Below the pieces are notes generated by a model. That model was given only the letters and a program-made list of their open reading frames with translations, made no database searches and was not told the origin of the DNA. A stretch of DNA of 64,000 nt. Source: Escherichia phage PE37. Within the stretch, counting starts at the first letter, position 1. Each line of letters begins with the position of its first letter. Shown one piece after another: positions 2,574 through 63,953 of the stretch. Position numbers and translations under genes: made by a program. The DNA lies in sequence record NC_054929.1. The stretch is one strand, 5' to 3'.

Positions 2574-2882
2574 ATGAAACTGACGACTGAACAAAAAGTA
2601 GCAATTCGTGAAATTTTGAAAACTAAATTGTCCATGGGTATTTCAAACGTGGTTTTTGAAAAGTCTGATGGTACTATTCGTACCATGAAAGGTACTCGTG
2701 ATGCAGACTTTATGCCAACCATGCAAACTGGTAAATTGACTGAATCTGCCCGGAAAGAATCTACTGATATGATTCCAGTATTTGATGTTGAGCTTGGCGA
2801 GTGGCGAGGTTTTTCTATTGACAAATTGATTTCCGTTAATGGTATGAAAGTTGAGCATTTACTCCAATTTATTGGTAAATAA
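2574..2882 (+). CDS. hypothetical protein (102 aa)
   Basis: TAAATG junction with previous ORF. Confidence 0.55.
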   Translation: MKLTTEQKVAIREILKTKLSMGISNVVFEKSDGTIRTMKGTRDADFMPTMQTGKLTESARKESTDMIPVFDVELGEWRGFSIDKLISVNGMKVEHLLQFIGK

Positions 2883-2883
2883 A

Positions 2884-2908
2884 TGCTTTAAGAATTATTT
2901 GTTATTAT
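2884..2908 (+). promoter_or_regulatory. MotA-dependent middle promoter candidate (gene 31)
   Basis: MotA box TGCTTTA at 2884-2890, 12-nt spacer, TATTAT at 2903-2908. Confidence 0.55.
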
Positions 2909-2938
2909 TAATTCATCTGTTAACAAAAAGGAAAAACG

Positions 2939-3274
2939 ATGTCTGAAGTACAACAGCTACCAATTCGTGCTGTCGGTGAATATGTTATTTTAGTTTCTGA
3001 ACCCGCACAAGCCGGTGATGAAGAAGTTACAGAATCAGGACTTATTATCGGTAAACGTGTTCAAGGTGAAGTTCCTGAACTGTGTGTAGTTCACTCTGTC
3101 GGTCCTGATGTTCCTGAAGGTTTCTGCGAAGTTGGTGATTTGACTTCTCTTCCAGTTGGTCAAATTCGAAATGTTCCGCATCCTTTTGTAGCTCTGGGTC
3201 TTAAGCAGCCAAAAGAAATTAAACAAAAATTCGTTACTTGTCACTATAAAGCTATTCCGTGTCTTTATAAGTGA
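2939..3274 (+). CDS. 31: GroES-like co-chaperonin for capsid protein folding
   Basis: 111 aa; position after cd; AGGAAAAA RBS; preceded by MotA-type middle promoter. Confidence 0.85.
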
Positions 3275-60350: not shown

Positions 60351-60389
60351 GTTTACATACTGATGAGGTAGTGATACTATTACCTCATC
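60351..60389 (+). promoter_or_regulatory. early promoter with stem-loop (PeSL-like)
   Basis: GTTTAC at 60351-60356, TGaTACTAT -10 at 60375-60380; IR GATGAGGTA (60362-60370) / TACCTCATC (60381-60389). Confidence 0.65.
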
Positions 60390-60713: not shown

Positions 60714-60751
60714 GTTTACATAGGGTTTTAGTTGTGATACTATTACCCTAT
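60714..60751 (+). promoter_or_regulatory. early promoter with stem-loop (PeSL-like)
   Basis: GTTTAC at 60714-60719, TGaTACTAT -10 at 60738-60743; IR ATAGGGT (60720-60726) / ACCCTAT (60745-60751). Confidence 0.65.
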
Positions 60752-61341: not shown

Positions 61342-61629
61342 ATGATTCTTTATGCGAAAGTATCGTCCATTGAAAATGGATATAAATATGATCAAGACGC
61401 GGCTAAAGCCTTGATTGATGATTATGGCGTTTTAACATGTTTTGAAGTTGAAAAGGTTTACATTGACCGTTCATCTTCTCAAGTTAAATTAGTAAAGGAA
61501 GACCGTAAATTTAATACAGTAAATTTTGATTTCTTTATTGAAACGGAAAAAGGTCCTCTTGAATATGATATTTTCAAGAATCCTTTGGGTCTTGAATGCA
61601 TCGTAAATATGTATTATCATAAATGGTAA
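61342..61629 (+). CDS. hypothetical protein (95 aa)
   Basis: ATG 3 nt after previous stop. Confidence 0.5.
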   Translation: MILYAKVSSIENGYKYDQDAAKALIDDYGVLTCFEVEKVYIDRSSSQVKLVKEDRKFNTVNFDFFIETEKGPLEYDIFKNPLGLECIVNMYYHKW

Positions 61630-61632
61630 ATA

Positions 61633-61657
61633 TGCTTTAAGAATTATTTGTTATTAT
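61633..61657 (+). promoter_or_regulatory. MotA-dependent middle promoter candidate (tRNA cluster)
   Basis: MotA box TGCTTTA at 61633-61639, 12-nt spacer, TATTAT at 61652-61657; 29 nt identical to the gene 31 promoter copy. Confidence 0.55.
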
Positions 61658-61726
61658 TAACTCATATCGCATTGATTAATACCCTCTATCATCAAGGGTT
61701 CTTTCCTGAGAGCCTTTGTTAATAAT

Positions 61727-61799
61727 TGGGAATTAGCCAAGTTGGTAAGGCACTGGATTTTGATTCCAGGATGCAAAGGTTCGAGTCCTTTATTCCCAG
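61727..61799 (+). tRNA. tRNA-Gln (anticodon UUG)
   Basis: cloverleaf by eye: acceptor TGGGAAT/ATTCCCA, anticodon stem CTGGA/TCCAG, loop TTTTGAT, T-loop TTCGAGT. Confidence 0.85.
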
Positions 61800-61800
61800 C

Positions 61801-61887
61801 GCGAGAATGGTCAAATTGGTAAAGGCACAGCACTTAAAATGCTGCGGAATGATTTCCTTGTGGGTTCGAGTCCCACTTCTCGCACCA
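61801..61887 (+). tRNA. tRNA-Leu (anticodon UAA), type II with long variable arm
   Basis: acceptor GCGAGAA/TTCTCGC, anticodon loop CTTAAAA, T-loop TTCGAGT, encoded CCA. Confidence 0.85.
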
Positions 61888-61892
61888 AATTT

Positions 61893-61966
<74 letters not shown>

Positions 61967-61976
61967 ATTTAATTTA

Positions 61977-62050
61977 CTCCGTGTAGCTCAGTTTGGTAGA
62001 GCGCCTGATTTGGGATCAGGAGGTCCAAGGTTCAAATCCTTGTATGGAGA
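61977..62050 (+). tRNA. tRNA-Pro (anticodon UGG)
   Basis: anticodon stem CCTGA/TCAGG, loop TTTGGGA, T-loop TTCAAAT; acceptor has G-U pairs; no encoded CCA. Confidence 0.8.
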
Positions 62051-62052
62051 CT

Positions 62053-62142
62053 GGAGGCGTGGCAGAGTGGTTTAATGCACCGGTCTTGAAAACCGGCAGT
62101 CGCTCCGGCGACTCATAGGTTCAAATCCTATCGCCTCCGCCA
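62053..62142 (+). tRNA. tRNA-Ser (anticodon UGA), type II
   Basis: acceptor GGAGGCG/CGCCTCC, anticodon stem CCGGT/ACCGG, loop CTTGAAA, long variable arm, encoded CCA. Confidence 0.85.
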
Positions 62143-62147
62143 GTTTT

Positions 62148-62223
62148 GCTGATTTAGCTCAGTAGGTAGAGCAACTCACTTGTAATGAGAAGGTCGGCGG
62201 TTCGATTCCGTCAATCAGCACCA
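62148..62223 (+). tRNA. tRNA-Thr (anticodon UGU)
   Basis: acceptor GCTGATT/AATCAGC, anticodon loop CTTGTAA, T-loop TTCGATT, encoded CCA. Confidence 0.85.
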
Positions 62224-62224
62224 A

Positions 62225-62299
62225 GGCCCTGTAGCTGGAAGGTTCAAGCAAGCGACTCATAATCGCCAGATGGTGGTTCAATTCCACCCAGGGCCACCA
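62225..62299 (+). tRNA. tRNA with CAU anticodon (Met or lysidine-type Ile)
   Basis: acceptor GGCCCTG/CAGGGCC, anticodon loop CTCATAA, T-loop TTCAATT, encoded CCA. Confidence 0.8.
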
Positions 62300-62308
62300 A
62301 ATTAATTT

Positions 62309-62395
62309 GGGGAGTTATCCCGTAGAGGTAGCGGTGTGGACTGTAAATCCATTGTCATTGCGACTCGGGTGGTTCGACTCCATCACTCCCCACCA
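62309..62395 (+). tRNA. tRNA-Tyr (anticodon GUA), type II
   Basis: acceptor GGGGAGT/ACTCCCC, anticodon loop CTGTAAA, variable-arm hairpin, T-loop TTCGACT, encoded CCA; D-arm atypical. Confidence 0.75.
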
Positions 62396-62399
62396 ATTT

Positions 62400-62474
62400 G
62401 GATGTGTAGCTCAATGGCAGAGCGATCGCCTGTTAAGCGATTGGTTATAGGTTCGAATCCTATCACGTCCGCCA
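62400..62474 (+). tRNA. tRNA-Asn (anticodon GUU)
   Basis: acceptor GGATGTG/CACGTCC, D-stem GCTC/GAGC, anticodon stem ATCGC/GCGAT, loop CTGTTAA, T-loop TTCGAAT, encoded CCA. Confidence 0.88.
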
Positions 62475-62478
62475 AATC

Positions 62479-62554
62479 CGAGGCATAGCTCAGAAGGAAG
62501 AGCAAGGACCTTCTAAGTCCTAGGTCGTAGGTTCGATCCCTACTGCCTCGACCA
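62479..62554 (+). tRNA. tRNA-Arg (anticodon UCU)
   Basis: acceptor CGAGGCA/TGCCTCG, D-stem GCTC/GAGC, anticodon stem AGGAC/GTCCT, loop CTTCTAA, T-loop TTCGATC, encoded CCA. Confidence 0.88.
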
Positions 62555-62570
62555 ATTAAGTGAGGAAAAT

Positions 62571-62921
62571 ATGAAAGGTAATGTTTATTTAGTAGTTCAT
62601 GATTTAACATTTTATTTTAATCACAATGACACGGTTATTTCTGAACGTGTAATTAATTTGCTTTATCAACACGCGGATTATGTTTATGTCGAAAACGAAT
62701 ATGGTCATTGGCAATTTCTCAAAAATCGTTCATTTGGCTTAGATGGTTACGAATACTTTGAACGTAAAGACCTTTTAGATAAAATTTCGTTATCTACACA
62801 ATATCAAAATCATAAGTCTTTACATAAATGTCGGCTAATTCGAAATGCTGAATCTGCTTATGAAGCAATTGATTTATGGCGTTTACGCCGTGAACAAATT
62901 GATGCTTTAAAAGAATATTAA
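62571..62921 (+). CDS. hypothetical protein (116 aa) inside the tRNA transcription unit
   Basis: ATG 17 nt after tRNA-Arg 3' end with GAGGAAAA RBS. Confidence 0.5.
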   Translation: MKGNVYLVVHDLTFYFNHNDTVISERVINLLYQHADYVYVENEYGHWQFLKNRSFGLDGYEYFERKDLLDKISLSTQYQNHKSLHKCRLIRNAESAYEAIDLWRLRREQIDALKEY

Positions 62922-63089
62922 GAAACCGGGTCGCTACCGGTAAGTCGTCGGACTGATGTTCCCTGTTTAAGGACTGGCATTAATAAATCTTTATGTTTTG
63001 TTAATGTCCTCTTATATCACAGCAGAAACGGCGCACCGAATTATCGATTCGAGGAAATATCTTTGCCGTAAGCCGAGTAGCGTTTTTGA

Positions 63090-63184
63090 CGGAACGTTCG
63101 GATATGGTCGAGATATGGCCTTTTAAAAATATTGAGTAGCGTCAACTGCTTAATAACCGGGTTCGAATCCCGGCGTTTCGTACA
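63090..63184 (+). ncRNA. tRNA-like stable RNA candidate
   Basis: 7-bp acceptor-like helix (63090-63096 with 63174-63180) closing a canonical T-arm (CCGGG-TTCGAAT-CCCGG, 63157-63173); no clean D or anticodon arm; terminator at 63236-63260. Confidence 0.35.
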
Positions 63185-63235
63185 AACACTTGCCTTAGCA
63201 GGTGGAACCCCGACAAGGTTGCCGCAAGGCTTAGA

Positions 63236-63260
63236 CCCGACCGAAAGGTTGGGGCTTTTT
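63236..63260 (+). terminator. intrinsic terminator closing the tRNA/stable-RNA unit
   Basis: CCCGACC-GAAA-GGTTGGG followed by GCTTTTT. Confidence 0.7.
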
Positions 63261-63262
63261 GG

Positions 63263-63270
63263 TATAAATA
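63263..63270 (+). promoter_or_regulatory. late promoter TATAAATA (CTS protein at 63311)
   Basis: exact 8-mer directly after terminator, 41 nt upstream of ATG. Confidence 0.6.
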
Positions 63271-63310: not shown

Positions 63311-63784
63311 ATGAAATCATATACTCAATTTTTAAATGAAGCGGTGTTAAATGAAGCATCTAGCACCGAAATTCAAGCTGTCGCAAAAGCAGCCATTGCA
63401 GCGGGTAAATATTCTTACAAAGATGCTTCTGATGAATCGCGATTCCAGTTTGCACGCGACATGAAAGCGGAAGGATTTACGGGAAATGCAGTTAGTATGG
63501 CCTGGAAAAGTTTAGTTGCTACTGGCGCTGCTTTTGCAAAGGCTTCGGGTAAACCTGCTCCTAAAGCAGATCCTAAAGTCGCACAAGAGAAAAATATTGT
63601 TAAAGGAATTATCTCCAAATATGAAGCTATCCTTAAAGAGCTTTTAGTAATCAAAACTGAAGGCCAAAAACTAGCTCGTGCTTATAGTTTCAAAGATAAC
63701 CCACATGCTCACTCTCTTGAGTATGTTGAAGACATCCAAAAAATTATTAAAGACCGCATTTGGTCTGCTAAACAAATCAAATAA
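63311..63784 (+). CDS. internal-protein candidate with capsid targeting signal
   Basis: N-terminus MKSYTQFLNEAVLNEA (CTS-like with L-x-E sites); late promoter at 63263-63270; terminator downstream. Confidence 0.55.
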   Translation: MKSYTQFLNEAVLNEASSTEIQAVAKAAIAAGKYSYKDASDESRFQFARDMKAEGFTGNAVSMAWKSLVATGAAFAKASGKPAPKADPKVAQEKNIVKGIISKYEAILKELLVIKTEGQKLARAYSFKDNPHAHSLEYVEDIQKIIKDRIWSAKQIK

Positions 63785-63792
63785 CATTCTTA

Positions 63793-63819
63793 GCCCCGAC
63801 CAAAAGGTTGGGGCTTTTT
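63793..63819 (+). terminator. intrinsic terminator (near-duplicate of the 63236 terminator)
   Basis: GCCCCGACC-AAAA-GGTTGGGGC followed by TTTTT. Confidence 0.7.
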
Positions 63820-63953
63820 GGTATCTAGGCCTTTCCAGGCCTCTCTAGACATCATTTAGTTTCTACCCTTTATAATATATTATCCTATCCTTTGATTTCC
63901 CCTCCCTGCCCTAGAATTCCCCAAAACTTTTTAAAAATTTTTTTCACAAAACG

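What the first reader, a model, noticed from the sequence alone, without database searches (positions are those of the whole stretch)
62571..62921. Protein-coding ORF embedded between the tRNAs and the stable-RNA region
A 116-aa ORF starts 17 nt after the tRNA-Arg CCA with its own GAGGAAAA RBS and no promoter of its own, so it would be translated from the tRNA precursor transcript or its processing products. A small protein co-expressed with tRNAs could act in tRNA processing, modification or repair.
Basis: inference. Interest (0 to 1): 0.35.

Follow-up and report, generated by a model that had tools for sequence, protein, structure and literature searches.

The report
Conserved small gene inside T-even tRNA operon
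The 116-codon reading frame right after the last tRNA is a real, selected gene found in hundreds of T4-like phages and first noted in 2008, but its protein matches nothing of known function and nothing shows that it acts on tRNAs.

Summary
It is a real gene. dN/dS against relatives is 0.07-0.28, length differences are whole codons, and it is full length in 422 phage records. It is the "T2L trna.2 ORF" of Brok-Volchanskaya et al. 2008, also known as RB69ORF150c and PHROG 3355, and is annotated "hypothetical" everywhere.

Homologues down to about 30% identity sit in or at the 3' edge of the tRNA cluster in eight Tevenvirinae genera. T4 and its closest relatives (64 records) lack the gene: there tRNA-Arg abuts rnaD directly.

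I found no promoter motif between a T4-PM2-like MotA middle promoter (61633-61657) and the ORF. The only terminator lies after rnaC (63236-63253). The ORF is therefore most likely translated from the tRNA/stable-RNA precursor, as T4 segB is. Its stop codon lies inside the rnaD homologue.

The parts
60352..60380 (+). T4-early-type promoter-like site (TTTACA-17-TACTAT with TG) upstream of the Ip-like gene; a possible read-through source
60715..60743 (+). second early-type promoter-like site, upstream of trna.4/trna.3/trna.2
61633..61657 (+). MotA-box (TGCTTTA), 12 nt, then TATTAT: a middle-promoter candidate at the position where T4 record X03016 annotates promoter PM2, about 70 nt before tRNA-Gln
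61727..62554 (+). cluster of ten tRNA genes: Gln, Leu, Gly, Pro, Ser, Thr, Met(CAT), Tyr, Asn, Arg
62479..62554 (+). tRNA-Arg(UCU) with encoded CCA; the last tRNA, directly upstream of the ORF
62555..62570 (+). 16-nt leader ATTAAGTGAGGAAAAT with Shine-Dalgarno GAGG at 62562-62565. It is nearly identical in Tequatrovirus and Mosigvirus relatives, and no stable occluding structure is predicted
62571..62921 (+). 116-aa protein gene (T2L 'trna.2 ORF' / RB69ORF150c / PHROG 3355)
62918..63037 (+). homologue of T4 rnaD (species 2 RNA). Its T4-mapped 5' end aligns to the last base of codon 116, so the stop codon lies inside it
63044..63182 (+). homologue of T4 rnaC (species 1 RNA)
63236..63262 (+). 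intrinsic terminator (stem 63236-63253 plus T run) that ends the tRNA/ORF/stable-RNA unit

Best explanation
The interval is a genuine, dispensable accessory gene of T-even phages that rides inside the tRNA/stable-RNA operon.

Shown: it is under purifying selection, it is conserved from Tequatrovirus to at least seven other Tevenvirinae genera, and it always lies in or at the 3' edge of the tRNA cluster.

Inferred from anatomy and from T4 literature: it has no promoter of its own. It is transcribed from the MotA-dependent middle promoter upstream of tRNA-Gln, plus read-through from early promoters, on the same precursor as the ten tRNAs and rnaD/rnaC. It is translated from that precursor or from the fragment released between tRNA-Arg 3' maturation and rnaD 5' maturation, using an unstructured GAGG site.

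The position equivalent to the T4 rnaD 5' end falls in the last sense codon. RNA maturation and completed translation of one molecule therefore probably compete, which would limit protein yield. The same argument was made for T4 segB.

Product: a 116-aa, near-neutral, aromatic-rich alpha/beta protein with a long C-terminal helix and no recognisable catalytic or nucleic-acid-binding domain.

My committed guess is that it acts by binding a partner rather than by catalysis, as an early/middle host-interaction or counter-defence factor (about 45%). It is not a factor needed for tRNA maturation. An RNA-linked role (tRNA-Arg, rnaD/rnaC, or protection of phage tRNAs) gets about 20-25%.
For: - Coding: dN/dS is 0.07-0.28 over pairs with dS from 0.16 to above 1. 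Length differences (114, 115, 116 aa) are whole codons.
- Conservation: full length in 422 of 422 matching records.
- Family: PHROG 3355, E=2e-52, full length. All 13 diverse members match it.
- Identity with the T2L trna.2 ORF: primers #24 and #25 of PMC2330249 each match window 62573-62601 and 62889-62913 with one mismatch.
- Synteny: 16-18 nt after tRNA-Arg in Tequatrovirus and Mosigvirus. About 31 nt after tRNA-Arg in Gelderlandvirus. After the last tRNA or tRNA-like element in Winklervirus. Within the cluster in Mosugukvirus, Karamvirus, Moonvirus and Kagamiyamavirus.
- Transcription unit: promoter and terminator patterns, the PM2 annotation in X03016, and the description of the T4 precursor in PMC2330249.
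- Translation start: the fold of the initiation region is no more stable than shuffled sequence (z=-0.19).
- Dispensability: T4 lacks the gene, and 64 records show the direct T4-type junction.
Against: There is no direct evidence of transcription, translation or protein for this gene in any phage. The 5' end of rnaD is known only for T4 and was transferred by alignment. The promoter scans are simple consensus matches, and a weak or atypical promoter inside tRNA-Arg or tRNA-Asn cannot be excluded. The functional category (binder, host-interaction or counter-defence) rests only on priors for small T-even accessory genes and on negative searches. The AF2 model is of moderate confidence (pLDDT 73.5 and 71.0), so the absence of fold matches is weak evidence.
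Confidence: 0.8

Rival explanations
1. One reading: the protein works on the co-expressed RNAs, for example in processing, modification, repair or protection of phage tRNAs (notably tRNA-Arg UCU), or as a partner of the stable RNAs rnaD/rnaC, whose roles are unknown.
For: The position in or next to the tRNA cluster is kept in eight genera even though the flanking ORF content varies. The gene lies directly after tRNA-Arg in three genera that carry different tRNA-Arg lineages. In all Tequatrovirus and Mosigvirus loci examined, the stop codon abuts the rnaD 5' hairpin, even where the C-terminus differs. The protein is aromatic-rich (about 15%) with invariant His, Lys, Arg, Asn and Asp residues. 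The roles of rnaC/rnaD are unknown (PMC3014915).
Against: No match to any RNA-binding or RNA-modifying family or fold. pI is about 6-7, not basic. T4 and 63 other records lack the gene yet keep tRNAs and rnaD/rnaC. In PM2, Moon, EcS1 and Karamvirus the gene is followed by other ORFs, not by an rnaD-like RNA. The whole locus is syntenic in these phages, so adjacency can simply be inherited.
Confidence: 0.22
2. The reading frame is a chance ORF or an annotation artefact in a spacer between stable-RNA genes, and is not expressed as protein.
For: There is no experimental evidence of the protein. Every database entry reads 'hypothetical'.
Against: dN/dS is 0.07-0.28, indels are in frame, and homologues at 30-40% identity keep the same length and motifs (NxxGHWxFxKxR, EYFxxKDLL) across genera.
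Confidence: 0.02
3. The ORF is a remnant or part of a mobile homing-endonuclease cassette, like segB and the HNH genes that invade T-even tRNA clusters.
For: tRNA clusters of T-even phages are invaded by segB and HNH genes (PMC2330249, PMC13096335). Two records label the homologue as an endonuclease: 'endonuclease' and 'recombinational endonuclease subunit D13'. The gene is present or absent among close relatives.
Against: No similarity to SegB (BLASTP E=1.6). No GIY-YIG or HNH Pfam match. At 116 aa it is too small for a nuclease plus a DNA-binding domain. It is ancient and syntenic across eight genera rather than sporadically inserted. In T4 x T2L crosses it is a marker excluded by SegB, not a homing element.
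Confidence: 0.03
4. The act of translating the frame, rather than the protein, is what matters: ribosomes running up to the rnaD 5' hairpin modulate folding, processing or stability of rnaD/rnaC or of tRNA-Arg.
For: The stop codon lies within the rnaD homologue, with zero spacing kept across divergent alleles. In T4, RNAC and RNAD are classed as late RNAs while the tRNAs are classed as early (PMC9697503).
Against: Strong purifying selection on the amino-acid sequence. Distant homologues keep the protein but not the downstream RNA. T4 makes rnaD/rnaC without the ORF.
Confidence: 0.04

Closest known systems
T2L 'trna.2 ORF' (Brok-Volchanskaya et al. 2008, PMC2330249) = T2_136 / RB69ORF150c / PHROG 3355
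   Same: It is the same gene. It is 96.6% identical to the T2 protein. The paper's probe primers match the window ORF. The position between tRNA-Arg and the species II/I RNA genes is the same.
   Different: Nothing substantive differs. The window allele is identical to the protein of Escherichia phage PE37. The name clashes with the unrelated T4 gene trna.2, which lies upstream of tRNA-Gln.
T4 segB (GIY-YIG homing endonuclease inside the T4 tRNA cluster)
   Same: It is a protein-coding ORF embedded between stable-RNA genes of the same operon, without a promoter of its own. It must be translated from the tRNA precursor, and its stop codon sits at an RNA-processing site (PMC2330249).
   Different: No sequence similarity. 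segB is 221 aa, is a nuclease, is recently acquired and mobile, and its ribosome-binding site is predicted to be sequestered in a stable hairpin. The window ORF shows no such structure and is ancient and syntenic.
T4 proteins that act on tRNAs (Cef; PseT polynucleotide kinase; RNA ligases 1 and 2)
   Same: They are a precedent, from my own knowledge of T4 biology, that T-even phages encode proteins for tRNA maturation and repair.
   Different: Those genes lie at other loci and belong to recognised enzyme families (apart from Cef). The window protein matched no such family. Direct comparison with Cef was not done.
T4 rnaD / rnaC (species 2 and species 1 stable RNAs)
   Same: They are the immediate downstream neighbours, nearly identical to T4 over rnaC and most of rnaD, and belong to the same transcription unit.
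   Different: They are non-coding RNAs of unknown role (PMC3014915). In T4 they follow tRNA-Arg directly, with no ORF in between.

Membership tests
PHROG 3355 / RB69ORF150c family (T2L trna.2 ORF) | Full-length profile match | tested here: met
   E=2e-52, residues 1-115 on profile positions 1-116 of 117. All 13 diverse members match.
PHROG 3355 / RB69ORF150c family (T2L trna.2 ORF) | Conserved core motifs N-x3-H-W-x-F-x-K-x-R and (E)YF-x2-(K)DLL-x2-I | tested here: met
   Invariant columns N42, H46, W47, F49, K51, R53, Y62, F63, D67, L68, L69 and I72 in alignment A4. The same motifs appear in the Karamvirus homologue (hhalign probability 97%).
PHROG 3355 / RB69ORF150c family (T2L trna.2 ORF) | Location in or at the 3' edge of the tRNA gene cluster, same strand | tested here: met
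T-even tRNA / stable-RNA operon (one precursor transcript) | Middle promoter (T4 PM2 type) just upstream of tRNA-Gln | tested here: met
   TGCTTTA, 12 nt, then TATTAT at 61633-61657. PM2 is annotated at the equivalent place in X03016. This is a pattern match only; activity was not tested.
T-even tRNA / stable-RNA operon (one precursor transcript) | Terminator only after species 1 RNA, with none between the tRNAs and the ORF | tested here: met
   On the + strand the only terminator-like sites are at 63236-63253 and 63792-63815.
T-even tRNA / stable-RNA operon (one precursor transcript) | No internal promoter in front of the ORF | tested here: inconclusive
   No sigma-70, MotA-box or late-promoter pattern in 61658-62570. 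Consensus scans cannot exclude weak promoters, and no transcript mapping is available.
GIY-YIG / HNH homing endonucleases of T-even tRNA clusters | Nuclease motif and domain | tested here: not met
   No Pfam hit at E up to 10. BLASTP against T4 SegB gives E=1.6.
Pfam DUF2654 | Score at or above the gathering threshold (25 bits) | tested here: not met
   Best score is 18.2 bits over 25 residues in 5 of 13 members, and none in the window protein.
tRNA processing, modification or repair proteins | Homology to a known RNA enzyme or RNA-binding fold | tested here: not met
tRNA processing, modification or repair proteins | Effect on tRNA maturation or integrity in vivo | not testable with these tools
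   Needs a deletion mutant plus tRNA northern blots or tRNA-seq.
Known anti-defence / defence proteins | Match to a catalogued family | tested here: not met
   PADLOC gives 0 families. That library holds defence proteins, not anti-defence proteins, so this is weak evidence.

The most novel reading that the evidence does not exclude
The protein is functionally tied to the RNAs it is co-transcribed with. It could be a factor that stabilises or shields phage tRNA-Arg(UCU) and other phage tRNAs against host tRNA-targeting defence nucleases. It could instead be the missing protein partner of the enigmatic stable RNAs rnaD/rnaC. Either would explain why the gene has stayed glued to the tRNA cluster across eight Tevenvirinae genera.
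Probability: 0.2. Interest if true: 0.55.

Novelty: already known. Interest (0 to 1): 0.2.

Why it matters
If the protein turned out to act on phage tRNAs or on rnaC/rnaD, it would give a handle on two old loose ends of T-even biology: what the species 1 and 2 RNAs do, and how phage tRNA sets are protected or tuned during infection. That is topical because tRNA-cleaving defence systems are countered by phage tRNAs (PMC13096335).

As things stand it is one more conserved 'hypothetical' accessory gene. The practical value of this check is threefold:
- It ties the ORF to the 2008 T2L description.
- It shows that T4 is the exception in lacking the gene.
- It documents that the family spans at least eight genera, always inside the tRNA operon.

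Tried and rejected
- **Profile and sequence searches.** Pfam, NCBIfam and PADLOC scans of the window protein and of distant members gave nothing above threshold. The only hit was a sub-threshold 25-residue match to DUF2654. A profile search against PDB sequences gave a best E of 0.015 to a cGMP-kinase fragment, judged chance.
- **Exhaustive phmmer over 1.84 billion representatives.** Seven hits, six of them the same family or its fragments. The seventh, a 960-aa FG-GAP-like repeat protein, was rejected as motif chance.
- **Homing-endonuclease relic.** Rejected.
- **Internal MotA-like promoter at 62659-62684 that could drive rnaD/rnaC.** The motif is kept only in T2-type alleles and is lost in all other alleles, so it is probably chance.
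- **Hairpin occluding the ribosome-binding site, as in segB.** Not found.
- **Rfam.** No family for rnaD/rnaC or for anything in the ORF.
- **Literature.** Searches for RB69ORF150c-type names and for PHROG 3355 found nothing.

Full report
**Observation**

The window is a T-even phage (Tequatrovirus). The 1.7 kb around the finding is 97-98% identical to ime09, EcNP1 and many other records. The exact protein sequence is that of Escherichia phage PE37.

The ORF scan lists 62571-62921 (+), 116 aa. ARAGORN finds ten tRNA genes at 61727-62554, ending with tRNA-Arg(TCT) at 62479-62554. Rfam confirms nine as tRNA and matches the tenth (Tyr) only below threshold, as tRNA-Sec.

The sequence shows a 16-nt spacer, ATTAAGTGAGGAAAAT, between the encoded CCA and the ATG. 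GAGG lies five nt before the ATG. The stop codon TAA (62919-62921) is followed directly by GAAACCGGGTCGCTACCGG.

**What the surroundings are**

T4 lacks this ORF. In its annotation tRNA-Arg is followed after one nucleotide by rnaD (species 2 RNA) and then rnaC (species 1 RNA).

Aligning T4 with the window gives nearly identical rnaD/rnaC homologues at 62918-63037 and 63044-63182. It also shows that the whole ORF, together with a different tRNA-Arg lineage, is the difference between the two phages.

The T4-annotated 5' end of rnaD (AUGAGAAACC...) aligns to window 62918, the last base of codon 116. The stop codon therefore lies inside the rnaD homologue. This zero-spacing junction (TAA followed by GAA(A/G)CCGGG) is kept in the Tequatrovirus and Mosigvirus loci I examined, even where the C-terminal residues differ; one Mosigvirus locus, L009, has two extra nt.

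**It is a real gene**

Against 12 relatives, Nei-Gojobori dN/dS is 0.07-0.28. dS ranges from 0.16 to above 1 and is saturated against Winklervirus. Length differences (114, 115, 116 aa) are whole codons. tblastn finds it in 422 phage records, all at 80% coverage or more. A chance ORF is excluded.

**It is already described**

The probe primers #24 and #25 used by Brok-Volchanskaya et al. (2008) for the "T2L trna.2 ORF" each match window 62573-62601 and 62889-62913 with one mismatch.

That paper calls it one of "two ORFs of unknown function" in the T2L tRNA region. It shows that T4 SegB homing excludes the ~1250-bp T2L region that contains the ORF; the ORF was inherited by 0.4% of progeny.

GenBank notes call the family RB69ORF150c. 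It is PHROG 3355, "unknown function" (E=2e-52). Every named cluster member is "hypothetical protein".

**Distribution and synteny**

| Genus | Position of the homologue |
|---|---|
| Tequatrovirus, Mosigvirus | starts 16-18 nt after tRNA-Arg; Mosigvirus keeps only tRNA-Met(CAT), tRNA-Arg, the ORF and the stable RNAs |
| Gelderlandvirus (Melville) | 31 nt after a T4-type tRNA-Arg |
| Winklervirus | after the last tRNA, or after a degenerate tRNA-like element ending in CCA, again about 18-20 nt away with a TGAGGAAAT site |
| Mosugukvirus PM2, Moonvirus | one small ORF intervenes |
| Karamvirus | directly after tRNA-Met; homology confirmed by hhalign at 97% |
| Kagamiyamavirus EcS1 | inside the cluster |

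The exhaustive HMMER search of 1.84 billion representatives found no credible homologue beyond this family.

A direct T4-type tRNA-Arg/rnaD junction occurs in 64 records. The window-type tRNA-Arg/ORF junction occurs in at least 295. The ORF-bearing layout is therefore the common and probably ancestral one, and T4 is the exception.

**Expression (inferred)**

- A MotA-box plus -10 pattern (TGCTTTA, 12 nt, TATTAT) lies at 61633-61657. This is the place where the original T4 record annotates middle promoter PM2.
- Early-type promoter-like sites lie further upstream, at 60352 and 60715.
- Between 61658 and the ATG there is no sigma-70-like, MotA-type or late (TATAAATA) promoter pattern.
- The first + strand terminator is at 63236-63253, after rnaC.

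For T4, the literature describes one precursor of about 1.75 kb. It runs from the middle promoter through all tRNAs, segB and the species II/I RNAs, and terminates after species I. The same paper notes that tRNA-Arg maturation cuts between the last codon and the stop codon of segB (PMC2330249).

The same logic applies here. The ORF can only be read from the precursor or from the fragment left between tRNA-Arg 3' maturation and rnaD 5' maturation. If the rnaD end is where it is in T4, the second cut would remove the stop codon.

Unlike segB, the initiation region is not predicted to be sequestered: minimum free energy -10.1 kcal/mol, z=-0.19 against shuffles. An internal MotA-like match at 62659-62684 is lost in every allele that is not T2-type, so it is probably chance.

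**The protein**

- It has 116 aa, pI about 6.3, about 15% aromatic residues, and is hydrophilic.
- Invariant residues across 13 diverse members include T13, N42, H46, W47, F49, K51, R53, Y62, F63, D67, L68, L69, W103 and R107.
- Two AF2 runs (pLDDT 73.5 and 71.0) agree on the topology: beta-hairpin, helix, beta-hairpin, a low-confidence but conserved middle segment, a short strand, and a 23-residue C-terminal helix.
- BFVD returns only uncharacterised proteins of other T4-like phages.
- There is no similarity to SegB.

**Function**

Nothing found here assigns a function. The gene is dispensable, since T4 lacks it yet expresses its tRNAs and RNAC/RNAD (PMC9697503).

The one argument for an RNA link is its persistent place in the tRNA operon and, in three genera, directly behind tRNA-Arg(UCU) of different lineages. 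But the whole locus is syntenic in Tevenvirinae, so inheritance explains this as well.

I commit to a small binding-type accessory protein made at low to moderate level, early or middle in infection, from the tRNA precursor. My estimates for its role are:
- host-interaction or counter-defence: about 45%
- RNA-linked role: about 20-25%
- cis effect of translation on rnaD: about 4%
- mobile-element relic: about 3%
- not a gene: about 2%

**Verdict**

The expression inference is reasonable and has a precedent in segB. The functional suggestion is unsupported but not excluded. The feature is an already annotated and previously published ORF of unknown function, so interest is low (0.2). The most novel reading not excluded is a partner or protector of phage tRNAs or of rnaC/rnaD, at about 0.2 probability.

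Noticed in passing
window 2874-2913 and 61624-61661: A near-identical cassette of about 38 nt, GGTAAAT(AA)ATGCTTTAAGAATTATTTGTTATTATTAA, carries a MotA-box middle promoter. It occurs both upstream of the gene 31-like ORF (2939-3274) and upstream of tRNA-Gln. It could be a shared regulatory module or a recombination substrate.
   Followed up: partly
window 63230-63266 and 63789-63825: The intrinsic terminator after rnaC is duplicated almost exactly after the 157-aa ORF (63311-63784), which has its own TATAAATA late promoter at 63263. The promoter-ORF-terminator cassette is thus bracketed by direct repeats and looks like a moron-type insertion. T4 has no such ORF here.
   Followed up: partly
window 62918-63182; L009 3015-3108: The rnaD/rnaC (species 2 and 1 RNA) homologues are almost identical to T4 but have no Rfam family. 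In a Mosigvirus-type relative ARAGORN calls the rnaC-equivalent region a 'tRNA-Stop(tta)', which suggests a tRNA-like 3' domain (T-arm CCGGGTTCGAATCCCGG) in species 1 RNA.
   Followed up: no
L005 (Serratia phage CHI14) 2868-2941: A degenerate tRNA-like element of about 74 nt ending in CCA lies between tRNA-Leu and the ORF homologue. The leader AATT(A/C)TGAGG appears on both sides of it. In Virsaitis27 the ORF follows tRNA-Leu directly, and Kc304 carries the same element after an extra tRNA-Thr. The annotated CHI14 start is probably 18 nt too far downstream.
   Followed up: partly
window 62479-62554 compared with L002 (T4), L004, L005, L020: At least two deep lineages of tRNA-Arg(UCU) circulate in T-even phages: the window/RB69/CHI14 type (GAGGCATAGCTCA...) and the T4/Melville type (G..C..T.GTGTAATGGATAGCA.ACGAT...). 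The ORF follows either type.
   Followed up: partly
window 62659-62684: A MotA-box/-10 pattern lies inside the ORF, pointing towards rnaD/rnaC. It is present only in T2-type alleles and lost in the others, so it is probably chance.
   Followed up: yes
L003 (T2) 2852-2920 and L008: In T2-type loci the first ~43 nt after the stop codon match rnaD. The sequence then diverges completely from the T4/window rnaD, so T2 may carry a different or truncated species 2 RNA.
   Followed up: no
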